In this document: positions 3,906 through 50,040 of the stretch, piece after piece
Layout of the letters: each line of letters begins with the position of its first letter
Position numbering within the stretch: the stretch's first letter is position 1
Source: Escherichia coli
Lineage (GTDB): Bacteria > Pseudomonadota > Gammaproteobacteria > Enterobacterales > Enterobacteriaceae
DNA length: 64,000 bases
NCBI RefSeq assembly: GCF_017348835.2
Contig: NZ_CP071375.1
Direction: 5' to 3' (one strand)
Notes under the pieces: model-generated
The model's database searches: none
Seen by the model: only the letters and a program-made list of their open reading frames with translations
What the model was told of the DNA's origin: nothing
Translations under genes and position numbers: made by a program

Positions 3906-4889
<984 letters not shown>

Positions 4890-4900
4890 TCAGACGCAAA

Positions 4901-5476
4901 TTAACGCCGCCAGATAATTTTACTGACTTTCCAGTTTTTCAGGGTATCGTCCGAAGGCATTAACCCTTCAGGACCACTCCATTCCCCGCTGAACTGGTAG
5001 CTAATATGTTGACTGCCTTCGGCTTTACATTCGACGGCACGATTATCATCACCATCAGCTTTTTGGCAATTGCCAAATGCTTTGCTGTAAAGGTCGCTAA
5101 ACGGTGTACCGATTTTAACACCGGTGTCAGCAGGAATATCGCTATCCAGCACGTCAATGCGACTGATCGTGCCTTGATCGCCGTTAATCACCATCGCCAC
5201 GTTGTCGCCCTTCATCACTTCAAAAAAGCGCACCACGTTGCCGTTCGCGGTTTTCATTCCGCTGCGCAGGCGATAATCGCCATCAAGCGCATCGGCAATG
5301 GCTTGTTCTTGCAGTGGTGTGGACGCCGTTAATTCACCAACGCCCTGCTCGCTCACTTTGGTGGACGACCCAAACCAGTTCCACGGGTTAGCGGCAGACC
5401 AGTTAACTGACGACATCGTGGAACAGCCGGTCAGCATCAATGGCATAGCGCATAACATTAAACGCAGCGATTTCAT
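4901..5476 (-). CDS. yfeY: Lipoprotein YfeY
   Basis: 191-aa ORF with lipobox LTGC near N-terminus. Confidence 0.85.
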   Translation of the reverse strand: MKSLRLMLCAMPLMLTGCSTMSSVNWSAANPWNWFGSSTKVSEQGVGELTASTPLQEQAIADALDGDYRLRSGMKTANGNVVRFFEVMKGDNVAMVINGDQGTISRIDVLDSDIPADTGVKIGTPFSDLYSKAFGNCQKADGDDNRAVECKAEGSQHISYQFSGEWSGPEGLMPSDDTLKNWKVSKIIWRR

Positions 5477-13050: not shown

Positions 13051-13087
13051 TTCATCCTGCCGAACGCAACCGAACGCGCCGGATACA
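13051..13087. repeat. Left att-like imperfect direct repeat (ttcatcctgcc..N17..ccggataca)
   Basis: Shares the 11-bp and 9-bp arms at the same spacing with 22476-22511. Confidence 0.5.
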
Positions 13088-13127
13088 TGAGCGGGGTTAT
13101 CGAGTCGTTAGATCGAGGTATCCGGTT

Positions 13128-14333
13128 TTGAGCAAGACACCACTGACAGCAAAGGCCATAGAGGCCGCACAACCGCAGGACAAGCCCTATAAACTCACCG
13201 ATTCACAGACACCTGGCCTGTTTTTGCTGGTCCATCCCAACGGCAGCAAATACTGGCGATTCCGGTATTGGATAGACAAGAAGGAGCGGTTACAGGCTAT
13301 TGGGGTGTATCCGCTGATTAGCCTCAAGGAAGCCCGCAAACGCGCCACAGAGAGCCGTTTACTGATAGCCCAGGGAATTGACCCAATGGATTTGGCACGC
13401 AAGGAGAAAGCCATTGATGCTCTTAATGCTATCGCCAGTTTTAAAGCTGTAGCAGAAGACTGGATGGCTACCAAGGTGAGCGGATGGAGTGAGAGCTATA
13501 CAAAGCAGGTCAGATCGGCACTAGAGAAAGATGTTTACCCCGTGCTAGGTAAGCGGTCGATAGTGGATATAACGGCCCGTGACGTGCTGGCGTTACTACA
13601 GAAAAAGGAGCGCACCGCACCGGAACAAGCCAGGAAATTACGCCAGCGTATCGGGGAGATCTTCAAATTTGCCGTTATCACTGAACTGGTTAACCGGAAT
13701 CCGGTTGCAGATCTGGATACGGCACTGAAAGCCAGACGCCCAGGCCATAACGCGTGGATACCGATTAATGAAATTCCGGCCTTCTACAAAGCCCTTGAGA
13801 GAGCTGGGAGCGTTCAGATTCAGACGGCAATACTTTTGCTCATCCTCACAGCTTTGAGGACGGCAGAATTGCGCCTGATGCGCTGGGAATGGGTAGATCT
13901 GCAATCGGCAACAATCACATTGCCCGCTGAAGTCATGAAGGCCCGCCGACCGCATGTTGTCCCGCTATCCCGGCAGGCGGTCGAGCTATTACAGGACCAG
14001 TTTACCCGCAGCGGATACAGTGCTTTCGTCTTTCCTGGCCGATTCATGGACAAGCCACTTTCAGCCAGTGCCATCCTTAAAGCCCTGGAGCGTATCGGAT
14101 ACAAGTCGATAGCCACAGGCCACGGCTGGCGGACCACCTTTTCAACGGCGCTTAATGAGTCCGGCAGGTACTCACCAGACTGGATCGAAATCCAACTGGC
14201 CCACGTTCCGAAAGGCGTGCGCGGTGTTTATAACCAGGCGGCCTACCTGAAGCAACGACGGGCCATGATGCAGGATTATAGCGACTGTATTGATTCAATA
14301 CTGGCTGGTGACGGTAATCCACTTGAACCGTGA
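13128..14333 (+). CDS. intZ: P4-family tyrosine site-specific integrase
   Basis: 401-aa ORF; AP2-like N-terminal domain; C-terminal catalytic region with R..HGWR..Y signature (HGWRTTFSTAL, RGVYNQAAY); first island gene beside the left repeat. Confidence 0.88.
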   Translation: MSKTPLTAKAIEAAQPQDKPYKLTDSQTPGLFLLVHPNGSKYWRFRYWIDKKERLQAIGVYPLISLKEARKRATESRLLIAQGIDPMDLARKEKAIDALNAIASFKAVAEDWMATKVSGWSESYTKQVRSALEKDVYPVLGKRSIVDITARDVLALLQKKERTAPEQARKLRQRIGEIFKFAVITELVNRNPVADLDTALKARRPGHNAWIPINEIPAFYKALERAGSVQIQTAILLLILTALRTAELRLMRWEWVDLQSATITLPAEVMKARRPHVVPLSRQAVELLQDQFTRSGYSAFVFPGRFMDKPLSASAILKALERIGYKSIATGHGWRTTFSTALNESGRYSPDWIEIQLAHVPKGVRGVYNQAAYLKQRRAMMQDYSDCIDSILAGDGNPLEP

Positions 14334-14455
14334 ACTATAAGGCCGGGTTTATACTCAATATCGACGGTTGAAGCGCTCAAAAAACAACCGTGACAACCGT
14401 CACAAATATGCAATGTCAATGATCTGAATCAATAAATTGCCAATTCTTCGTTTCC

Positions 14456-14470
14456 ACTTTCGAATGAAAG
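14456..14470. repeat. 15-bp motif actttcgaatgaaag, copy 1 (internal inverted repeat ctttc/gaaag)
   Basis: Exact duplicate of 14591-14605. Confidence 0.7.
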
Positions 14471-14590
14471 CAAGATGCAGAAAAATAAATCACCATGAAA
14501 TCATGTACTTATTAATTTTGACCAAATGGTCCAAAATATCCTCGGTGAATCCATGCTTGCCACAGCCAGATGATTAATATTTAACCCATG

Positions 14591-14605
14591 ACTTTCGAAT
14601 GAAAG
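14591..14605. repeat. 15-bp motif actttcgaatgaaag, copy 2
   Basis: Exact duplicate of 14456-14470, 135 bp away, in AT-rich non-coding DNA. Confidence 0.7.
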
Positions 14606-14733
14606 TAAATTGATAAAAAAGTCAGTGTACACTAACTAAATCGAATATTTTTTGCGCTATGTTTGAATGATAATTGAGCAAAACTTTCGCAAGGTGTGAC
14701 GATGTGAGTAATTAATTTTAACTCTACAATAAA

Positions 14734-14791
14734 CCCATCCCGACAGGGATGGTACCTGGAGCGGAGCGAGAGGGACCATCCCCCTGTTTTT
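14734..14791 (+). terminator. Nested hairpins followed by a T-run (terminator-like; may also act on the minus strand)
   Basis: cccatcccgacagggatgg hairpin overlapping ggatggtacc..N16..gggaccatcc stem, then ccctgttttt. Confidence 0.45.
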
Positions 14792-14884
14792 AGTCTTTTG
14801 AAGTTAGTTTTTTAAGGGATTAAATAATTTTGCCTCAAATGAGACCACACCATACAAGGCCAAAAACAATCAGTATTGCGTGGA

Positions 14885-15400
14885 TCAGGCTGGTTTTTTA
14901 ACTATATACCCCGTATGCCAAGGATTCTGATCGCGCGGCATCGGGTCCGCCTTGATAGACTCATAAAACTTATCAGCCATCTCAGCCACAAACTGTACAG
15001 AGGATTCGAACTCAGCGTTTTTGTGTGCGGGAGGAAACCAGAAGTCTAACACGCCAGCATTTCTATTTTTACATACAGCGTATATAAGATAAGCATCAGA
15101 TGTAGGGGTAACTTTTTCGAAACCACCGGGACCATAACGACCAGTAGACCAGTCATCCCAGCATTGTTCTGTCCCGCTATAGCCGTACTGATTGGTATAA
15201 AGACCAATATTTACATGGACTTTACGTAAGTGGATAGGATATACACACGGGGGTTTATGGAAAAGAGTATCCTTTCCAAAATCAGGATGATGTCCATATC
15301 TCCAATGATAAATAAACGAATCCTTAAAGCTCTTTAATTCATCGTTTGTTTTAAACTTATTATCACTGTAGACCTTACCAATAAATTCATTCTGGACCAT
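14885..15400 (-). CDS. Hypothetical protein (171 aa), distal gene of two-gene island cassette
   Basis: ORF 14885-15403; ATG at 15398-15400; overlaps upstream gene by 14 nt; Trp/Tyr/His-rich, no family recognised. Confidence 0.6.
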   Translation of the reverse strand: MVQNEFIGKVYSDNKFKTNDELKSFKDSFIYHWRYGHHPDFGKDTLFHKPPCVYPIHLRKVHVNIGLYTNQYGYSGTEQCWDDWSTGRYGPGGFEKVTPTSDAYLIYAVCKNRNAGVLDFWFPPAHKNAEFESSVQFVAEMADKFYESIKADPMPRDQNPWHTGYIVKKPA

Positions 15401-15734
15401 CAAAGCTTACACTCTTTAAGCGTTCTTCTCGTGAATCGAATAAATCTTTTGATAAATCACACGCTTGTGTGAACGTCATTTTTTTTACTCGTGGTACAGC
15501 CATAGGCGAGGCCGCATTCATCACTTTGTTTTCTTCGTGATCGAGAGTAGCAGTGTAGCGAAACATGACACTTTTACCGCGCACCAACTGGTATCCTAGT
15601 CGATACGCTAACGCGTCAAGATGCGTCAGACGATTTGTTTTACGCAAGCCAGTCATAGCTTTTGGCTTACGAGTGCGCACAGAAAGGGATTTCCCTTCTC
15701 GCTTAGTCGCAAACAAAGTAACTATTTTTGACAT
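15387..15734 (-). CDS. Hypothetical basic protein (115 aa), proximal gene of two-gene island cassette
   Basis: ATG 15732-15734 preceded by GGAGA RBS; Lys/Arg-rich; stop overlaps start of downstream gene. Confidence 0.55.
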   Translation of the reverse strand: MSKIVTLFATKREGKSLSVRTRKPKAMTGLRKTNRLTHLDALAYRLGYQLVRGKSVMFRYTATLDHEENKVMNAASPMAVPRVKKMTFTQACDLSKDLFDSREERLKSVSFDGPE

Positions 15735-16290
15735 GGTATCTCCTGACATCAATCTGCTAAGGCCATTGTGCCTTGTTTGAATAGTAAACTATTCGCCCAA
15801 TCTACACCAGTGATTTTCTTGACGCCAATAGTAAAGGCAGCATTGCCCACCACAGGCAGACAATGAGACTTCAGATAGCGCACCTTCTATCGCGCACGCG
15901 CTCAATAAAACCAACGACACCGCCATCCTGCCTGACCGATGTTTTTAACCAGCGTATACAGAGAAACAGACAACAGCATGAAATCAGCGTATATCCAGGT
16001 GCAGACGGCACTATCACACAACGCACAGCAGGCTGAGGTGAACACTCAAGCAACTTTATCCCCGCCACCGACCACCGCAAACTATCATGACCGTGCCAAA
16101 TTCAAAAGGAATGGCCCATATAACGCGATGAACACACATAAGCGCTACACTTGCTTACCTGAAAACTTCACAGCGTCACAGCGCGTTTTAGACACGTTAA
16201 AATTAATGAGATTTCATTAAATTTTCACCAGACACCGGAACAAGCCTATAAATCAAAAATGAATTACCGACATGCGCCGCTGGCGTTCAC

Positions 16291-16310
16291 AGGAAGAATC
16301 AATAACTTAG
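16291..16310. repeat. Imperfect direct repeat aggaagaatcaataacttag, copy 1
   Basis: 17/20 identical to 16391-16410, exactly 100 bp downstream. Confidence 0.55.
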
Positions 16311-16390
16311 GCCAATGGCGAAAGTTAAACAAAATCAAGAACTTGCAGAAATGCAGGATGAAGCAGCCGATGTGCCCCGTTGGATTTTAC

Positions 16391-16410
16391 CAGAAGAATC
16401 AACAAGTTAG
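16391..16410. repeat. Imperfect direct repeat cagaagaatcaacaagttag, copy 2
   Basis: See 16291-16310. Confidence 0.55.
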
Positions 16411-16662
16411 ACTCGGTGATTTCACCGACTCCTGCCGGACTACTGACCAGATCGAACCATTCCCCAAATTTGGGGAGAGCAAACCACACGCAGATCCTGC
16501 CAGGCTATTTCATCCCACCGCATCACGTATTTGCACACTTCCCCGCTGACGTGCTCATTTTGATAACGAGTTACCCGCTAGCCCTTGCCACATCACCATT
16601 TGTCGCGCTTTGACTAAATTAGCGACGTGCCTGTTATAGCGATACGCTAGTTATGCAGAAAG

Positions 16663-16682
16663 CGCGACATATCCAGCAACCA
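16663..16682. repeat. Exact 20-bp direct repeat cgcgacatatccagcaacca, copy 1
   Basis: Identical to 16790-16809; lies just upstream of the 16707 ORF start. Confidence 0.7.
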
Positions 16683-16706
16683 TGCACCCTACAGAGGAAT
16701 TGAATC

Positions 16707-17159
16707 ATGCGAGACATAGACTGGTCAGCTATCCCTTTCGATGATTTACCGCCCTGGCATCTGGACTGGGACGTAGACCAACGCGAAAACGCGACATATC
16801 CAGCAACCACCAGCATTACAGCGATGCGCCCCGTAAAGCCTAAGAAATACCAGGCAACCGACCTGATAGCTCACCTCAAAGCTATTGGCGGCGTATTTAC
16901 CGGAAGCAAAGACACGCTTGCACATGAAGTATGGCCCCGGAAGACGCCAGCGGGTCGAACCGTTTTACGCTTACTGACCGAACTGTCAGACAACGGCGAC
17001 GCTGTAGTGATTAACCGTGGTCGTTGTGGCGTGGAAGTTATTCTGACGCCGAAGAACAGGGCACAGACGCCTGAATTAAGCGCACCCAAGCAAATGCATA
17101 GCCAAAAATTAAGTCCAGCAGAACGCGTTATATCGCTTTTAAATGGCATCGGATTTTAA
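16707..17159 (+). CDS. Hypothetical protein (150 aa)
   Basis: ORF with GAGG RBS about 10 nt upstream of the ATG; non-repetitive composition; no family recognised. Confidence 0.5.
   Translation: MRDIDWSAIPFDDLPPWHLDWDVDQRENATYPATTSITAMRPVKPKKYQATDLIAHLKAIGGVFTGSKDTLAHEVWPRKTPAGRTVLRLLTELSDNGDAVVINRGRCGVEVILTPKNRAQTPELSAPKQMHSQKLSPAERVISLLNGIGF
16790..16809. repeat. Exact 20-bp direct repeat cgcgacatatccagcaacca, copy 2
   Basis: Inside the 5' end of the 16707 ORF; 127 bp from copy 1. Confidence 0.7.
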
Positions 17160-17185
17160 TTAATTTTGATGTGGTAATTGCAGGC

Positions 17186-17213
17186 AAAAAAATCCCGCCG
17201 GAGAAAGCGGGGA
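17186..17213 (-). terminator. Intrinsic terminator-like hairpin oriented for the minus strand
   Basis: Minus-strand reading ccccgctttctccggcggg followed by U7 (plus strand aaaaaaa-tcccgccggagaaagcgggga). Confidence 0.5.
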
Positions 17214-17446
17214 AGTGAAATCAATCGTTGTAGTTATAGATCACATTTTGGAGTTGAGGATGGCTAATCCTCGCTAATATTATCGCGCCGTTATGTGATG
17301 GGCGCAATTATTTCTTACTAATTAAAAGTTTTGTAAATATTACAGAATATCCCTTTTCACTATATGGTAAAAGATGTGAAACAGGGACATGAGGAATATA
17401 ATATTAAGTATCAACAGTAATGTTGGTCTTTAATTTCATTCAGGGC

Positions 17447-17490
17447 GCGGTGAGGGTTTTCTCCATATTTTTCCTCACCGCTACTTTTTC
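17447..17490 (+). terminator. Terminator/attenuator-like hairpin immediately upstream of the AlpA-like gene
   Basis: gcggtgagg..N17..cctcaccgc stem then tactttttc; a third complementary segment gaggtgag overlaps the RBS of the next gene. Confidence 0.45.
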
Positions 17491-17501
17491 GAGGTGAGAA
17501 C

Positions 17502-17693
17502 ATGAATGATAGCGAATTAATGACGGTGAACGAGGTAGCCGCTTTATTCGGCGTTACCCGTCGGACAATATTCCGGTGGATGAACAAGATTAAAGGCTGG
17601 CCCGTCCCGGTCAGTCCGATTGGCTCAAGAATTAAGTTTATCCGATCTGAGATTTTGGAATTCTATAAAAACAAAGGCGCTCGCCACCAATGA
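17502..17693 (+). CDS. AlpA/Xis-like small DNA-binding regulator (phage transcriptional regulator family)
   Basis: 63-aa ORF with HTH-like segment VNEVAALFGVTRRTIFRWM; GAGGTGA RBS. Confidence 0.65.
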   Translation: MNDSELMTVNEVAALFGVTRRTIFRWMNKIKGWPVPVSPIGSRIKFIRSEILEFYKNKGARHQ

Positions 17694-17769
17694 AAACAGC
17701 TACTGAGATTATCAAATAACCTATTGATTTAAAAAGCTAGCTACCGCAATTTCTGAAGGAATAGGCAGC

Positions 17770-18096
17770 ATGAAAATCAAAGCAAACACAATTAAAGAAA
17801 TAACATCAATCAAAGTAAAAGGAGCAGATGCCATGCATTCATTAGATAGTTATTTTCAGCGCACGACAGCCCCTAAATCAGCCGCCCAGGAACGCCGTGA
17901 GGAATTCCAGGAAAAAGTGATGCGTTCTGCTGATTATATTGCGGACAAGTTCGCGGAAACGGTTCGGCCACTTGTTGATGAAGTAGCTGATAAACTTCAG
18001 TCTGAAATGCCGGAAGACATGGAAGGCACTGCAAAGGCGCGACTCCTTTTTGAATTAAGTCGTCGTTTCGGCGTGTCAATAAGCACTTTTAAATAA
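17770..18096 (+). CDS. Hypothetical phage protein (108 aa)
   Basis: ORF in co-directional island gene string; no family recognised. Confidence 0.5.
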   Translation: MKIKANTIKEITSIKVKGADAMHSLDSYFQRTTAPKSAAQERREEFQEKVMRSADYIADKFAETVRPLVDEVADKLQSEMPEDMEGTAKARLLFELSRRFGVSISTFK

Positions 18097-18113
18097 TCGG
18101 AGGAGGAAAGACA

Positions 18114-18656
18114 ATGGACGCATTTGATGTACTGACAAACAAAGGCGATGAACTGGTAGCACAGCGTGATAAAACCGCCAACGAAGGGGAACGCGCACTG
18201 TTAAATAAGCAGATTAAAGCGATCCGTATGGCCCAGTTTAAATTAATCAGCAATGAAGTTATCGAAAAAATTAAACCGCAGATCCCACAAATCGTTGCTG
18301 ACGCTATTAAAGCCGCCGGACTGGAGAAACGCATTGCCGGGCTGAAAACGAACGCAGAGAAAATGGAGATGCACAAACAGAGCGGTGCTCCGACTCCGGA
18401 TGAGTACTTCTCACCGGATGCTGAGTTTATGGCGCAGGTTGAGGAACGTCTGGGTAGCTGTCTCACCGAGGAACAGTGTCGCTATTTTGATGGAGTGGAT
18501 AGTTCGGCAGGTATTGACCTGAACTCGTATTTCGGTCGTGAAATTGAGCATTTTGATGCCGCCCCGTCTATGCCGGAGCCAGAACCAGAAATGGCCGCCG
18601 ATCCTGAAGCTGAGCAACGGAAACGCGTATTCAATGCGATAGGGATTCGGTACTGA
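18114..18656 (+). CDS. Hypothetical phage protein (180 aa), acidic C-terminus
   Basis: ORF preceded by GGAGGAAAG RBS (18092-18108); no family recognised. Confidence 0.55.
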   Translation: MDAFDVLTNKGDELVAQRDKTANEGERALLNKQIKAIRMAQFKLISNEVIEKIKPQIPQIVADAIKAAGLEKRIAGLKTNAEKMEMHKQSGAPTPDEYFSPDAEFMAQVEERLGSCLTEEQCRYFDGVDSSAGIDLNSYFGREIEHFDAAPSMPEPEPEMAADPEAEQRKRVFNAIGIRY

Positions 18657-18707
18657 TCGGATAAAAGAAAGCCGGGAATTACCCCGGCTGACTTAACAAT
18701 GTGACCA

Positions 18708-19082
18708 ATGAACAAATCGGACAAGACAAACAGGATAAGCAGTCTCGAAACAATGTTCGGGAACTATATTAGCACAAGTCCGGAGAAAATCATCATGTTG
18801 GCACTACGCATCATGCAGGGCATCGCTAAGACCCTCGCAGAACATGTCTTAGACCTGAAACATTCGCCACTGAGCAAACAGGCCATGAAGCGCCAAACGC
18901 TTCGTCTGTGGGCTGAATATTCGCTTGGAACTATCAATAAAATCATCGACATGAAATCGGGGCCGAGCAACCAGAGCGCGGAGGAAATGGAGTTCATCAG
19001 GCGTTTAATTCTCATTCGCAGAGACATTCATAGCCAGTTACACAGCGTGGGAATCGATATTAATGATGGGACGGGCGATTAA
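18708..19082 (+). CDS. Hypothetical phage protein (124 aa)
   Basis: ORF in co-directional gene string. Confidence 0.45.
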   Translation: MNKSDKTNRISSLETMFGNYISTSPEKIIMLALRIMQGIAKTLAEHVLDLKHSPLSKQAMKRQTLRLWAEYSLGTINKIIDMKSGPSNQSAEEMEFIRRLILIRRDIHSQLHSVGIDINDGTGD

Positions 19083-19120
19083 TTTTCGGACAAGTACTAT
19101 GCGCGCGCGAGGAGCTGAAC

Positions 19121-19351
19121 ATGAAGCAAGATATTGCAGACAGGCTGGAGATACTCGAAGGCCAGCGGGCAGAAGCGAAACAACTACGTAAGCAGGCCAG
19201 AAGAGCGCACAGGAACTACGAAGCAGAATCACTGACCGCTTTCATCAACTTCACAAACCGTTGCATCCTGGAGTGTTACAGGGAGGATGCAGAAAACTGG
19301 CTGGATTCATTGCCAGAACAGACTCTGCATGAACTGAACGGCGACCAGTAA
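19121..19351 (+). CDS. Hypothetical phage protein (76 aa)
   Basis: ORF with GAGGAG RBS upstream. Confidence 0.45.
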   Translation: MKQDIADRLEILEGQRAEAKQLRKQARRAHRNYEAESLTAFINFTNRCILECYREDAENWLDSLPEQTLHELNGDQ

Positions 19352-19638
19352 ATAAATCCAGTACGTTTCCCGCAGTGCGCATAACGTACATTATGTGAAA
19401 AACGATATGGATATATATCAGTCTGACTTCAATGAAGAAAACGGACTTCCAGCATCAACCACAAAGAAGTATGGCTAATGCAGCTTTATAAGCCATTGAT
19501 TCTATTAAACGATATTTTTTGTGATTGGTTGAAGCAAACCAAAACACGATGCCACTGAAGCGTTAATAAACTGTTTCAATGTGAAATTATCAGAGTAAAG
19601 AACAATTTGGAGGGTCCGCAAACGCGGATAACAATATC

Positions 19639-21819
19639 ATGAGTGGAAATCTCGGGACCATATACTACGAGGTCGATGCCCGCACTGGGAAACTTCTTAT
19701 CGCGCAACAGCAGGCGGAAGAGGCGTTCGATCGCATTGAACGAGGAGCGCGGAAGGCTGATAGCGGCGTCAAAAAGTTAAATACGCAGATGACTAAAACA
19801 TCAGCCGCAGTCAAAACCAACCTTTCCCCGGCAATCCGTAACGCATCATACCAGATCGCAGACCTTGCCACTCAATTGCAGATGGGCGGTAATGCGCTTC
19901 AGGCGTTCGCTGTGCAGGGTGCGCAGTTATTAGCTGGCTTTGGCACGATGGGCGCGGTAGCTGGCGCGGTGCTGGCTATCGCTGGCGCTATGGGTGGAAG
20001 CCTGGCACAAGGCGCTGATAGTGCAGCCGGATCGGTTGAGTATCTGGACAAGGCGATCACCAAACTGAACGAGGTCATAGCTGTAAATGAACAGGGCGTG
20101 ACGGTGATGAGTGATAGTTACGCCAGACTTTCTAAGGTTAACGCTGAAGTAGCGAAACAGATGCGGAACATGGCTGAAATTCAGGCAATTGCAGCACTGC
20201 GTGACCTGAAAGAACAGGCAAGCCAGGCACAGGGGGAAATGTCGTCATTCTGGCGCAGCTTGCAGGGTGGTAAAGCTGACGCAGCAGCAGCAGCACAGGC
20301 ACTTGATGATCTTGGAATCACAACCAACGACTACAAAGAGGCGATAGCCATACTGAACGCCAATCAGCCGGATACACAGGCGCAAATGGCAACGCTAGCT
20401 AAGTCCGTGATGTACATAGGCGAGGAATACAACCTGACAAACCAGCAAGCCTACGAGTTCATCCGAGCACTAAATAGGGCCGCGACAACGAGAACGCCGG
20501 AAGCCATGCAGGAACTATCGGGCTTCATGCAGGTATTGCTACAGGACACCGAAAACGGTAACGAGGCATTCCGTGAACTGGCTATCAAATTCGTTGATGC
20601 ACAAACCAAAGGCGCAATGCTGGAAGACCAACTAAACCGACTGAAAGGCGCTATCAGTGACGCAGCCACAGAAGCCAGAAACGCCAATTTTACCACTATG
20701 CTCAACACCGTCGCCGCACGCCTGGCAGCCATTGAGCAAGGTTGGGAGGCAGGCGTTAGGATGCAGATGAAAGCCCAGGGCTACACTGAAGAGCAGATCG
20801 ATGAATATGTGAACATGGAAACGGCGTACCGTGATGCAAAAGCCGCTTTGGACGAGAAGAATAAGGCCGACCGTGAAGCTATTGCGCTATCCAAACGCCA
20901 GGCCGCAGAAGCAGCCCGCAAGGCAAAACAGGAAGAAGCTGAAGCACAACGCAAGGCCAAACAGTTAGCCGCGCAGAAGGAGCAGGCAGGACGCTTTACG
21001 CAGCAAGTAATGACGGAATACCTGACGACCGTAGATCCGGCAACAGGCAAGGCGTTTAACCCTGCCGCACAAGTAGAAATGCAGGAGCAGCAGAAGAAAG
21101 CGGCGCTGGATAAATACAGACAGTTGGGCGTCCTGGATGAACAGCAGTACCAGAACACGCTAACCGCCATCCAGAAAACCGCGTCAATGCGCCGCCAGCA
21201 AATCATCAAAGACGAGGCCGACACGTTATTCAACAATCAGCAACAGTTGATCGGCACATTTGGCGATTTCTTCGGTGAACTGTCTGGAGTCATAGCAGAC
21301 GGTGCAGGTGAGCAAAACGCGGCATATCAAGCGCTATTTGCTGTGCAGAAGGGTTTTGTATTGGCATCAGCAGCTTTAAGCCTTCAGAAAGCGCTTGCTG
21401 AGGCAAACGCCTTGCCTTTCCCGGCTAATCTTCCGGCCTATGCGCAAGCTATGTCAGCAGGCACGCAGATCATTTCAGCTATTCGTGGAATAGCTTTCGG
21501 TGGCGGACGCTACAACGGCGGCGCGGTTGGTGCTGGCAACCTGTACCGCGTGGGTGAACACGGTAAGCCTGAGATATTCAAGGCGAACAATGGCAGCCAG
21601 TACATGATCCCAGGTGATAACGGTCGCGTGATAAGTAATCGTGACATTGGCGGCGGTGGCGGCGTAACAATCAACAGCCCGATCACCATTAACACTACGA
21701 ATGGCTTCAGTGATGAAGACTCAAGGCGTCTTGAGGAAGCGATGAAGCGCGTAGCTATGGGCGTTTGCAGGCAGGAGTCAACCAGACCGGGAGGAATGTT
21801 AGCCCCGCGCCGTCGTTAA
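19639..21819 (+). CDS. Phage tail tape-measure-like protein (lambdoid H-like), orphan
   Basis: 726-aa Ala/Gln-rich coiled-coil ORF; C-terminal GNLYR motif and Gly-rich tail as in lambda H; no neighbouring tail genes. Confidence 0.6.
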   Translation: MSGNLGTIYYEVDARTGKLLIAQQQAEEAFDRIERGARKADSGVKKLNTQMTKTSAAVKTNLSPAIRNASYQIADLATQLQMGGNALQAFAVQGAQLLAGFGTMGAVAGAVLAIAGAMGGSLAQGADSAAGSVEYLDKAITKLNEVIAVNEQGVTVMSDSYARLSKVNAEVAKQMRNMAEIQAIAALRDLKEQASQAQGEMSSFWRSLQGGKADAAAAAQALDDLGITTNDYKEAIAILNANQPDTQAQMATLAKSVMYIGEEYNLTNQQAYEFIRALNRAATTRTPEAMQELSGFMQVLLQDTENGNEAFRELAIKFVDAQTKGAMLEDQLNRLKGAISDAATEARNANFTTMLNTVAARLAAIEQGWEAGVRMQMKAQGYTEEQIDEYVNMETAYRDAKAALDEKNKADREAIALSKRQAAEAARKAKQEEAEAQRKAKQLAAQKEQAGRFTQQVMTEYLTTVDPATGKAFNPAAQVEMQEQQKKAALDKYRQLGVLDEQQYQNTLTAIQKTASMRRQQIIKDEADTLFNNQQQLIGTFGDFFGELSGVIADGAGEQNAAYQALFAVQKGFVLASAALSLQKALAEANALPFPANLPAYAQAMSAGTQIISAIRGIAFGGGRYNGGAVGAGNLYRVGEHGKPEIFKANNGSQYMIPGDNGRVISNRDIGGGGGVTINSPITINTTNGFSDEDSRRLEEAMKRVAMGVCRQESTRPGGMLAPRRR

Positions 21820-22315
21820 CCAAATCCCACGCCAGGGGGATAGACTGGCGGCCTTTCAATTCCGTTGAAACGACGGAATCAAACACCCCGATTCAGGGTA
21901 TTTAAACGTCGCGTTTCACGACATTTATCTAAGTCATTGATTTATATTGTAACTCATAATTGAGTTGCGCCGACCATCCCGCCACAAACGCTCCTACGCA
22001 AAAATTCCCTCACAATTACCCTGCCAATTTTCCAGATTTCACGTATACGCGCCTATATCCCCGCCACCGGATACACGCCCGCTTATACCGGATACTTTTA
22101 TGCCATCATTATTAAATCCATTAATAATCATCAAACCATAATTAGCACAACTTATAATCGAACAAAAAACACACAACATTGATAATGATTTTTTCTGGTT
22201 ATACTTATCTAAAAAAGTGGTATGGGAAGTAACTTATTGTTTTGTAATTACAAATTTATTGCGTGGTCAGATGAACAGACTTGCGCACCTCCCGAAAAAC
22301 ACGCGAAAATCGAAG

Positions 22316-22426
22316 TGTTCTTTCTTTTTTTGTTTTTTATTTTTTTATTTTCTCTTTTTCTTCTCTTTCCGGTTCTCTTCTTTTTCTGGTTTTGGTTTTT
22401 TCCTTTTTTATTTTTATTCTTTCTTC
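22316..22426. repeat. ~110-nt homopyrimidine (T/C-rich) low-complexity tract
   Basis: About 90% pyrimidine on the top strand by eye; no plausible coding frame. Confidence 0.7.
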
Positions 22427-22475
22427 AGGGTTGTGATCAAACACACCAAAACATTTTCGCCACAAAAGCGTTAAT

Positions 22476-22511
22476 TTCATCCTGCCAGACCATTCACTTT
22501 CACCGGATACA
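22476..22511. repeat. Right att-like imperfect direct repeat (ttcatcctgcc..N16..ccggataca)
   Basis: Partner of 13051-13087; a further partial copy (caccggatacac) at 22065-22076. Confidence 0.5.
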
Positions 22512-49952: not shown

Positions 49953-49960
49953 GCTAAGTG

Positions 49961-50040
49961 GCCGGATAAGGCGTTAACGCCGCATCCGGCAATGGTGAAC
50001 GATGCCTGATACGACGCATCACGCGTCTTATCAGGCCTGG
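49961..50040. repeat. REP element
   Basis: gccggataaggcgttaacgccgcatccggca and partner. Confidence 0.5.

What the first reader, a model, noticed from the sequence alone, without database searches (positions are those of the whole stretch)
16291..16410. Pair of 20-bp imperfect direct repeats exactly 100 bp apart in the ORF-poor gap upstream of the cassette
aggaagaatcaataacttag (16291-16310) and cagaagaatcaacaagttag (16391-16410) are 17/20 identical, and flanking bases are also similar (tgg..t.t.ac before each). They lie in a ~950-bp region (15753-16706) with only weak small ORFs of doubtful reality, which is the expected location of the promoter for the minus-strand cassette. Iteron-like direct repeats could be regulator binding sites or a replication/packaging signal.
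Basis: seen in the sequence. Interest (0 to 1): 0.45.

Follow-up and report, generated by a model that had tools for sequence, protein, structure and literature searches.

The report
IHF-site repeat module in eut island
The two repeats are real copies of a non-coding 44-bp module (a small hairpin followed by a perfect IHF-type DNA-bending site) that varies in copy number between related E. coli mobile islands and sits upstream of the island's AlpA-like regulator operon, not with the toxin-antitoxin cassette; this is a plausible but untested regulatory or architectural element of ordinary kind.

Summary
The repeat is real but longer and less exact than reported. It is 44 nt (16267-16310 and 16367-16410), 33/44 identical, 100 bp apart; 500 shuffles never exceeded 28/44. 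The quoted 20-mers match 16/20, not 17/20. The window is an E. coli chromosome. The repeat lies in a 9.4-kb intZ island inserted between eutB and eutA (the CPZ-55 site). The gap is non-coding. Each copy (R) is a short hairpin plus a perfect IHF core, WATCAANNNNTTR, and a third core lies between them. Seven of the window's ten cores lie in this island, all intergenic (0.56 expected). Relatives carry zero, one hybrid, or two R copies, so R plus the 56-nt spacer behaves as a 100-bp unit of variable copy number. The repeat is not linked to the YafO cassette, whose conserved block ends at 15914; islands have either one without the other. In 9 further loci the module sits 300-650 nt upstream of the (orf150)-AlpA-like operon. 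Best reading (about 0.4): IHF-bound architectural sites in that operon's upstream control region. Main rival: hairpin modules of a plus-strand leader RNA. Binding and function are untested.

The parts
16267..16310 (+). Repeat copy R1: hairpin GCGCC-GCT-GGCGT (16274-16286), a linker, then an IHF core
   Evidence: hairpin -6.2 kcal/mol, in register with most relatives
16297..16309 (+). IHF core 1, AATCAATAACTTA (perfect WATCAANNNNTTR)
   Evidence: conserved in L003 and L047
16304..16326 (.). 23-bp near-palindrome AACTTAGGCCAATGGCGAAAGTT across the R1/S junction (9 of 11 arm pairs; perfect in L002)
   Evidence: read; local hairpin
16311..16366 (+). Spacer S (56 nt) between the two copies; R+S behaves as a 100-bp unit
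   Evidence: S3'-R-S5', R-S-R, R alone, R-S
16333..16345 (+). IHF core 2, AATCAAGAACTTG, inside S
   Evidence: 13 distinct left contexts share an almost invariant core
16342..16357 (+). Hairpin CTTGCA-GAAA-TGCAGG (GNRA-type loop; T.G wobble on the + strand), overlapping the 3' end of core 2
   Evidence: L040 has CCTGCA/TGCAGG
16367..16410 (+). Repeat copy R2: hairpin degenerate in this window (GCCCC..GGATT), IHF core intact
   Evidence: relatives L003, L005 and L053 keep the hairpin
16397..16409 (+). IHF core 3, AATCAACAAGTTA
16413..16428 (.). Palindrome TCGGTGA-TT-TCACCGA directly after R2
16462..16475 (.). Palindrome/hairpin CCCCAAATTTGGGG, one of a family nnCCA-N4-TGGnn whose outer pairs co-vary
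   Evidence: 2.2 extra outer pairs versus 0.31 in the background
16481..16525 (+). Block C, the most conserved piece of the gap (CAGATCCTGCCAGGCT invariant in 4 aligned islands); 22/30 identical to the attR stretch
15936..16230 (+). Block A, conserved non-coding (80-90% identity; covered by most of the 197 genomes that match the gap), with a promoter-like GTCACA-17-TAAAAT at 16175-16203 pointing rightwards
14356..15914 (-). YafO toxin plus partner cassette block, including 162-180 nt upstream of the partner gene; moves independently of the repeats
16707..17693 (+). Downstream operon start: 150-aa ORF (16707-17159) and AlpA/excisionase-like HTH (17502-17693)
13051..22486 (.). The island, bounded by the 11-nt direct repeat TTCATCCTGCC (13051-13061 and 22476-22486) between eutB and eutA

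Best explanation
The two repeats are copies of a non-coding module, R. R consists of a 5-bp hairpin-forming palindrome, an 8-10-nt linker and a perfect IHF core. Together with the 56-nt spacer S, which holds a third IHF core, R forms a 100-bp unit whose copy number differs between islands. The module belongs to a conserved ~0.8-kb non-coding region (blocks A, R/S, C and D) that always lies upstream of, and in the same orientation as, the (orf150)-AlpA-like HTH operon of a family of small phage-related mobile elements. I propose that host IHF binds the three cores (16297, 16333 and 16397). IHF would then bend this stretch sharply and so shape the upstream control region of the rightward operon, for example by bringing block A or other upstream sites close to the promoter region near 16610-16700. 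Shown: the repeat, its non-coding nature, the consensus matches, their enrichment and conservation, the copy-number variation, and the linkage to the AlpA operon rather than to the toxin-antitoxin cassette. Inferred: IHF binding, DNA bending and any regulatory effect.
For: The repeat is real: 33/44 identical, and 0 of 500 shuffles reach it. Three perfect WATCAANNNNTTR cores lie within 113 bp on one strand, and 0 of 5000 gap shuffles give 3 or more. Seven of the window's 10 cores are inside the 9.6-kb island, where shuffles average 0.56 and peak at 3. All seven are intergenic, in my reading against the annotation. Cores recur at homologous places in L003, L004, L005 and L009. The two core differences between R1 and R2 both fall on N positions. 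Across variants N1, N3 and N4 vary, while ATCAA and TT change only in single degenerate copies. The R1-R2 spacing is again 100 bp in L003, at about 87% identity, despite a +1 and a -1 indel. The module is non-coding. It is decoupled from the YafO cassette. In 9 further loci it lies 300-650 nt upstream of the (orf150)-AlpA-like gene, although AlpA identity there is only 47-82%; that fits a host factor better than an AlpA-specific operator. For E. coli PICIs, the alpA promoter region is where helper-phage activation and AlpA auto-activation act (PMC6092414).
Against: There is no binding data. The cores are paralogous or orthologous copies, so shared ancestry explains part of their similarity. 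N2 is invariant, and the S-type core is conserved at all 13 positions, which is more than IHF needs. The 3' ends of cores 1 and 2 lie inside hairpin or palindrome stems. In L040 a change that breaks the IHF consensus (TT to CT) improves the hairpin. The ychJ-type island has only degenerate cores. Relatives with one or no R keep the same operon, so two copies are not essential. R2's hairpin has decayed in this window. In strain PSJ-23 all three differences from the window over 1.85 kb fall in S and R2, which suggests weak constraint or recombination there. No convincing sigma-70 promoter was found near orf150.
Confidence: 0.4

Rival explanations
1. The repeats are RNA-level modules. Under this reading the R/S/C array is part of a long structured plus-strand leader, or a non-coding RNA, running into the orf150-AlpA operon. 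What is conserved would then be the string of small hairpins separated by A-rich single-stranded stretches, and the IHF-like cores would be those linkers.
For: Hairpins sit at fixed positions with different, compensating stems. The R hairpin appears as GCGCC/GGCGT, GCTCC/GGAGT, GTACTCC/GGAGTAC and CCTGC/GCAGG. The nnCCA-N4-TGGnn hairpins have 2.2 extra outer pairs versus 0.31 in the window background. Non-Watson-Crick pairs are mostly T.G on the + strand (about 5 versus 1, my count). The + strand folds with z = -2.28 and the - strand with z = -1.17. A conserved rightward promoter-like site lies at 16175-16203 in block A. Islands without block A have a TGgTATAAT promoter-like site plus a terminator just upstream of the array.
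Against: No Rfam family matches the gap at E<=5. The z-score is modest. Palindromes are equally compatible with dimeric DNA-binding proteins. In L003, L005 and L039 a strong terminator lies directly upstream of the array. There are no transcription data, and the sequences are too few and too mosaic for a formal covariation test.
Confidence: 0.28
2. The repeat is a neutral duplication or recombination scar. A short segment would have been duplicated, or shuffled by recombination between island variants, in a fast-evolving spacer. The two copies as such would have no function.
For: Copy number varies (0, 1 hybrid, 2), and R sits exactly at junctions between alternative modules. CE0011b has a clean R1/R2 hybrid that is 100 bp shorter. 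R2's hairpin is degenerate. Substitutions cluster in S and R2 in PSJ-23.
Against: The cores and hairpins persist in sequence backgrounds whose flanks are unrelated: 13 different left contexts surround one almost invariant S core. The 100-bp spacing is retained in L003 through compensating indels. IHF-core enrichment extends across the island's other intergenic regions.
Confidence: 0.2
3. The repeats are cis-acting origin or packaging-site elements, that is, iterons or terminase/initiator sites assisted by IHF.
For: IHF sites, direct repeats and palindromes together are typical of origins, cosB, parS and oriT (general knowledge; cosB in PMC9026076). A 9-kb circular record, CP057168.1, carries a related non-coding region. 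K-12 CPZ-55 has four tandem 23-bp iterons at the analogous place. Relatives encode HNH and TerS-like proteins.
Against: No replication initiator is recognisable in the island. There are only two copies, and 100 bp is not a helical multiple. There is no lambda-type cosN. No DNA similarity to any of 50,697 phage records was found, and IMG/VR gave no hit. Single- and zero-copy relatives exist.
Confidence: 0.08
4. One reading: operators or a promoter for the minus-strand YafO toxin-antitoxin cassette. An alternative in the same class is protein-coding sequence.
For: The repeats lie in the gap upstream of the cassette. One near-identical genome annotates a 54-aa minus-strand ORF there.
Against: The cassette block ends at 15914, and cassette and repeat occur independently of each other. 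The distance is more than 500 bp. No frame is open in all relatives, and the 100-bp indel breaks every frame. The tiny R-embedded ORFs are not conserved.
Confidence: 0.03

Closest known systems
IHF sites in phage and mobile-element control regions (lambda attP H1/H2/H', cosB I1, Mu early operator region)
   Same: A perfect 13-bp core consensus, several sites clustered within about 100 bp, an intergenic location in an integrase-bearing phage-related element, and conservation at the consensus positions.
   Different: The sites are not next to the att core (attL is 3.2 kb away and attR 6 kb away). No partner sites for Int, Xis or terminase have been identified. Upstream of R1 and R2 the sequence is not A/T-rich. 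Binding is untested.
Plasmid and phage iterons (for example the four 23-bp repeats in K-12 CPZ-55, seen; P4 ori/crr)
   Same: Direct repeats in a non-coding region of a small mobile element, at the analogous position in the CPZ-55 family.
   Different: There are only two copies, spaced 100 bp apart, and identity is 75%. No initiator gene is present, and copy number varies from 0 to 2 between relatives.
P4 immunity region (seqA and seqC direct repeats pairing with the CI RNA)
   Same: Direct repeats in a long leader upstream of a satellite's early operon, in a hairpin-rich sequence.
   Different: No complementary seqB-like segment was found between or near the repeats (inverted-repeat searches). 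There is no C4/IsrK/CI RNA hit in Rfam.
RIP/BIME-1 elements (REP palindromes flanking an IHF site)
   Same: A GC-rich palindrome next to an IHF core. R1 contains ATGCGCCGCTGGCG, which resembles my recollection of a Z2-type REP segment.
   Different: There is no full REP, no naRNA4/REP hit in the gap, and no second inverted REP. The match to the recalled REP segment is the only one in the window at 0 mismatches, and the REP sequence itself comes from memory.
alpA upstream region of E. coli PICIs (EcCICFT073)
   Same: A non-coding region upstream of an AlpA-family gene in an int-bearing, phage-related island. In PICIs this promoter is helper-induced and auto-activated (PMC6092414).
   Different: This island has no pri-rep or rpp homologue and instead carries a tape-measure-like 726-aa gene. 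No sequence similarity to PICI regulatory DNA was tested.

Membership tests
IHF binding site | Match to the core consensus WATCAANNNNTTR | tested here: met
   Three perfect matches at 16297, 16333 and 16397. The consensus itself is taken from established knowledge (Craig & Nash; Goodrich et al.).
IHF binding site | Occurrence above chance and conservation in homologues | tested here: met
   0 of 5000 gap shuffles give 3 or more; the island holds 7 versus 0.56 expected; homologous sites occur in relatives.
IHF binding site | A/T-rich tract 5' of the core (typical of strong sites) | tested here: inconclusive
   Present upstream of core 2 (GTTAAACAAA). Absent upstream of cores 1 and 3 (CACAGGAAG and ACCAGAAG).
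IHF binding site | Physical binding and bending by IHF | not testable with these tools
   Needs EMSA, footprinting or ChIP.
Replication iterons | Three or more tandem copies at helically phased spacing (about 11 or 22 bp) | tested here: not met
   Two copies 100 bp apart; the repeat finder found no further copies.
Replication iterons | A cognate initiator (Rep/primase) gene in the element | tested here: not met
   No such hit in PHROGs, NCBIfam or Pfam for the proteins searched. Pfam was run on only two proteins (orf150 and the 726-aa gene), the 76-aa ORF was searched only in NCBIfam, and several island proteins have no family hit at all.
Toxin-antitoxin operator | Located at the cassette promoter and inherited with the cassette | tested here: not met
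   The cassette block ends at 15914. L009 has the cassette without R; L002, L004, L038 and L041 have R without the cassette.
P4-type RNA immunity repeats (seqA/seqC) | A segment complementary to both repeats (seqB/CI RNA) in the same leader | tested here: not met
   No inverted repeat involves R, and there is no Rfam C4/IsrK match.
Lambda-type cos site | cosN GGGCGGCGACCT with flanking cosQ/cosB | tested here: not met
   No match within 2 mismatches in the gap, and no phage DNA similarity.
Protein-coding sequence | An open frame conserved in relatives, with third-position bias in substitutions | tested here: not met
   Stops occur in every frame in at least one relative. Block A shows 30/25/28 variable columns by codon position, plus frame-breaking indels.

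The most novel reading that the evidence does not exclude
The ~0.8-kb conserved non-coding region (block A, the R/S array and block C) could be the essential cis-acting core of an undescribed family of small phage-dependent elements. That family would include the eut/intZ islands, the ychJ islands and a 9-kb circular form, all with an AlpA-like HTH, HNH/TerS-like genes and a tape-measure-like gene but no recognisable replicase. The region might act as a protein-free, IHF-assisted origin or packaging site. Alternatively it could be a helper-sensing structured leader RNA whose repeated hairpin-plus-A-rich modules are the sensor. Under either reading the R repeats would be functional units whose number tunes the response.
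Probability: 0.12. Interest if true: 0.65.

Novelty: new member of a known kind. Interest (0 to 1): 0.3.

Why it matters
If IHF does bind here, the repeats mark the control region of a widespread but uncharacterised family of E. coli islands at the CPZ-55 (eut) site. That region matches 197 of 5426 complete genomes. These islands carry variable cargo, such as toxin-antitoxin systems and HTH proteins, next to this region. Knowing where their switch lies would make induction and mobilisation testable. The comparison also corrects an appealing but wrong assignment of the repeats to the toxin-antitoxin cassette. In itself, a cluster of IHF sites in a mobile element's regulatory DNA is ordinary.

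Tried and rejected
- **Rfam:** the gathering search on the whole window and the E<=5 search on 15600-17700 found nothing in the gap.
- **tRNA/tmRNA:** none in the window.
- **Lambda cosN:** no match in the gap.
- **Phage collection:** blastn of 15900-16710 against phages gave no match.
- **IMG/VR:** the R-S junction pattern gave one hit, which BLAST showed to be unrelated, and the S-site pattern gave none.
- **GTDB representative genomes:** the R-S junction pattern gave 27 hits, all in unrelated taxa, so I take them as chance. The module therefore seems confined to E. coli strains.
- **Tiny peptides ending at each repeat's TAG:** MRRWRSQEESIT and VPRWILPEESTS are not conserved; L003 R1 has an earlier stop.
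- **The 31-aa ORF starting MAKVKQ:** only its first six or so codons are conserved, and frames and lengths differ in L002, L003 and L004.
- **CsrA-type GGA motifs:** 5 occur in 276 nt against about 4 expected, so there is no enrichment (my count).
- **sRNA pairing with the cores:** the sRNA-like gene upstream of the array in L005/L009 shows no co-variation with the cores across variants, and it is absent from the window.
- **Block C as the att core:** in the ychJ island the crossover lies about 370 nt further right. The 22/30 similarity of block C to attR in the window therefore stays unexplained.
- **Protein families for orf150 and the small ORFs:** no hits.

Full report
**Observation.** The similarity extends 5'. 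The repeat finder reports a 44-nt pair, 16267-16310 (CCGACATGCGCCGCTGGCGTTCACAGGAAGAATCAATAACTTAG) and 16367-16410 (CCGATGTGCCCCGTTGGATTTTACCAGAAGAATCAACAAGTTAG). The pair is 33/44 identical with a start-to-start spacing of exactly 100. In 500 dinucleotide-preserving shuffles of the gap, the best 44-mer pair at 44-300 nt spacing averaged 24.6 and never exceeded 28. In the real 64-kb window only one other place reaches 33/44, a T-rich low-complexity tract at 22320. The repeat is therefore real.

**Context.** The window is an E. coli chromosome, 100% identical to strain PE164 over the gap. The finding lies in an island of about 9.4 kb inserted between eutB and eutA, which is the CPZ-55 site. The island is bounded by the 11-nt direct repeat TTCATCCTGCC at 13051-13061 and 22476-22486. 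Its gene order is as follows:

| Feature | Coordinates | Strand |
|---|---|---|
| intZ | 13128-14333 | + |
| YafO toxin and a small partner gene | 14885-15752 | - |
| unannotated gap | about 15753-16706 | n/a |
| 150-aa ORF | 16707-17159 | + |
| AlpA/excisionase-like HTH | 17502-17693 | + |
| four small ORFs | 17770-19351 | + |
| tape-measure-like 726-aa gene | 19639-21819 | + |

**The gap is non-coding.** RefSeq annotates nothing there in PE164. Block A (15936-16230) accounts for most of the matches in the 197 genomes that hit the gap, at 80-90% identity. Its variable columns split 30/25/28 over the three codon positions, and relatives carry 1- and 2-nt indels. The 96-aa ORF 16259-16549 is open only in the window, and every frame has stops in at least one of L003, L005, L038 and L039. 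The copy-number difference of 100 bp cannot preserve a reading frame. Rfam finds no family in the gap, even at E<=5.

**What the repeat is made of.** Each copy starts with a small hairpin-forming palindrome (R1: GCGCC-GCT-GGCGT, 16274-16286). A linker follows, and each copy ends with a 13-mer that matches the IHF core consensus WATCAANNNNTTR perfectly: AATCAATAACTTA at 16297 and AATCAACAAGTTA at 16397. The consensus is established knowledge that I recalled and then tested. A third perfect core, AATCAAGAACTTG, lies between the copies at 16333 on the same strand.
- No shuffle of the gap gave three cores (0 of 5000; 17 gave two).
- Seven of the ten cores in the 64-kb window lie in this island (14427, 16297, 16333, 16397, 17717, 19489 and 21930). 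Island shuffles average 0.56 and peak at 3.
- Read against the annotation, all seven are intergenic.
- Cores recur at homologous places in other islands.
- The two core differences between R1 and R2 fall on N positions. Across all variants seen, N1, N3 and N4 vary, while ATCAA and TT change only in single, apparently degenerate copies.

**Comparative anatomy.** The islands are mosaics.
- The YafO cassette block, 14356-15914, is shared at 96% with L005 and L009. In both, a 75-aa HTH gene follows the cassette instead of block A, and L009 has no R at all.
- L002, L004, L038 and L041 have block A and R but a different cargo. This rules out a specific link between the repeats and the minus-strand cassette.
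- Copy number of R varies. OW1E2 (L003) has R1-S-R2, again with cores 100 bp apart despite a +1 and a -1 indel in S.
- CE0011b (L038) has one R1/R2 hybrid and is exactly 100 bp shorter.
- 203740 (L002), the commonest class, has R plus the first part of S.
- Res13 and TUM10008 (L004, L041) have S(3')-R-S(5').
- Metagenome contigs add R fused directly to the second half of S (L048, L051) and R1-S without R2 (L047).
- R (44 nt) plus S (56 nt) thus behaves as a 100-bp unit present in about 0.4 to 1.4 copies.

**Linkage.** In nine further loci the array lies 300-650 nt upstream of, and co-oriented with, an AlpA-like gene, sometimes with an orf150 homologue in between. This holds although AlpA identity to the window is only 47-82%. 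The same backbone occurs with other recombination modules.
- One is an island in ychJ, where an unrelated tyrosine integrase and its att site sit between the array and alpA.
- Another is a 9,003-bp circular record, CP057168.1, with a serine recombinase.
- K-12's own CPZ-55 lacks these blocks. It has four tandem 23-bp iterons at the analogous place.

**Hairpins.** The region is unusually rich in short palindromes whose stems differ between copies and islands yet stay complementary.
- The R hairpin occurs as GCGCC/GGCGT, GCTCC/GGAGT, GTACTCC/GGAGTAC and CCTGC/GCAGG, in register in 10 of 14 variants. Window R2 has lost it.
- Hairpins of the form nnCCA-N4-TGGnn have on average 2.2 extra complementary outer pairs in the gaps of ten islands, versus 0.31 for the same pattern elsewhere in the window.
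- The R1/S junction is a 23-bp near-palindrome (16304-16326) that is perfect in L002.
- Core 2 runs into CTTGCA-GAAA-TGCAGG (16342-16357).
- R2 is followed by TCGGTGA-TT-TCACCGA (16413-16428).
- The + strand folds somewhat better than shuffles (z = -2.28) and the - strand less so (z = -1.17). By my count most non-Watson-Crick pairs are T.G on the + strand.

**Interpretation.** I commit, at about 0.4, to the DNA reading. R1, S and R2 would carry three IHF sites that bend the upstream control region of the rightward orf150-AlpA operon. The hairpin-forming palindromes would be companion sites of unknown partners. The steps that are shown are:
- the repeat itself and its non-coding nature;
- the consensus matches, their enrichment and their conservation;
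- the variable copy number;
- the decoupling from the toxin-antitoxin cassette;
- the linkage to the AlpA operon.

Binding, bending and any regulatory effect are inferred.

The main rival, at about 0.28, is that the array is part of a structured plus-strand leader RNA. A conserved promoter-like site, GTCACA-17-TAAAAT, at 16175-16203 points into the array. Islands without block A have a TGgTATAAT promoter-like site plus a terminator just upstream of it. In L040 a change that breaks an IHF core improves the adjoining hairpin. The two readings are not exclusive.

A neutral recombination scar (about 0.2) fits several observations. These are the copy-number variation, the decayed R2 hairpin, and the fact that all three differences between PSJ-23 and the window over 1.85 kb fall in 16341-16396. 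It fits less well with cores that stay almost invariant in 13 unrelated left contexts.

An origin or packaging role (about 0.08) lacks several expected features. There is no initiator, no iteron-like phasing, no lambda cosN and no similarity to phage DNA.

**Comparison with known systems.** The closest known things are IHF sites in phage and mobile-element control regions. The module passes the sequence-level tests for an IHF site. It fails the tested defining features of iterons, toxin-antitoxin operators, P4-type seqA/seqC repeats, a lambda-type cos site and coding sequence (see the membership table). I therefore rate it a new member of a known kind. It sits in an uncharacterised island family, and its interest is modest.

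Noticed in passing
window 13051-13061 and 22476-22486 (plus CCGGATACA at 13080 and 22503): An 11-nt direct repeat, TTCATCCTGCC, flanks the island. Each copy is followed 16-17 nt later by CCGGATACA. These are probably attL and attR of the intZ island at the eutB/eutA (CPZ-55) site.
   Followed up: partly
window 16494-16523 versus 22479-22508: Block C, the most conserved piece of the gap, is 22/30 identical to the attR stretch, including an exact ATCCTGCCAG. A partial second copy, TCCTGCCGGACTA, lies at 16430. In the ychJ-type island the true crossover is about 370 nt away from block C, so the resemblance remains unexplained.
   Followed up: partly
window 16598-16611, 16658-16682 and 16785-16809: GAAAGCGCGACATATCCAGCAACCA occurs twice (24/25 identical, 127 bp apart), once just upstream of and once inside the 150-aa ORF. 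An inverted partial copy, ATTTGTCGCGCTTT, lies 47 nt upstream. The arrangement looks like an operator set for that ORF's promoter.
   Followed up: no
window 22319-22434: A long T/CT-rich low-complexity tract lies next to the right island end. PE164's RefSeq annotation places a 47-aa hypothetical CDS on the minus strand here.
   Followed up: no
window 14427, 17717, 19489 and 21930: Four further perfect IHF cores lie in the island, all intergenic: after intZ, after the AlpA-like gene, upstream of the 726-aa gene and downstream of it. Several are conserved in relatives, so the whole island seems to rely on IHF.
   Followed up: partly
window 19639-21819: The island's largest gene (726 aa) matches phage tape-measure PHROGs (1e-103 over residues 1-455) and, weakly, Pfam TMP_2. 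The island has no recognisable replicase or capsid genes. This is an unusual cargo for a 9-kb int/AlpA island.
   Followed up: partly
L045 (CP057168.1, whole record): A 9,003-bp circular 'plasmid', pRHB34-C15_2, carries part of block A, one R/S hybrid unit and a C-like block about 560 nt upstream of an AlpA-like HTH plus HNH operon. It has a serine recombinase instead of IntZ. It may be an extrachromosomal member or form of the same element family.
   Followed up: partly
L043 13579-24000 (E. coli 14EC001): An island inserted in ychJ has the same backbone (AlpA, HNH, small ORFs, an IS-disrupted region where the tape-measure-like gene would lie, cargo, block A and the array). Its unrelated integrase/att module sits between the array and alpA, so the int module has been swapped within one backbone.
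   Followed up: partly
L044 4900-5369 (K-12 CPZ-55, between yffL and yffM): There are four tandem copies of a roughly 23-bp iteron, GGTGGGTCAAAAGTTGCCGTTA, at the position analogous to the window's gap. Blocks A, R and C are absent from K-12.
   Followed up: no
L005 about 4860-4960; L009 about 3920-4000; L050, L052 and L053 likewise: In islands without block A the array is preceded by an extended -10 promoter-like site (TGgTATAAT), about 60 nt of sequence and a strong intrinsic terminator (GCGCCTGC...GCAGGCGTTTTTATTT). This is either a small-RNA gene or an attenuator directly upstream of the R/S array.
   Followed up: no
window 49960-50037: There is an naRNA4 (REP/BIME-derived) Rfam hit at 85.7 bits. 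It is the only Rfam family above its gathering threshold in the window.
   Followed up: no
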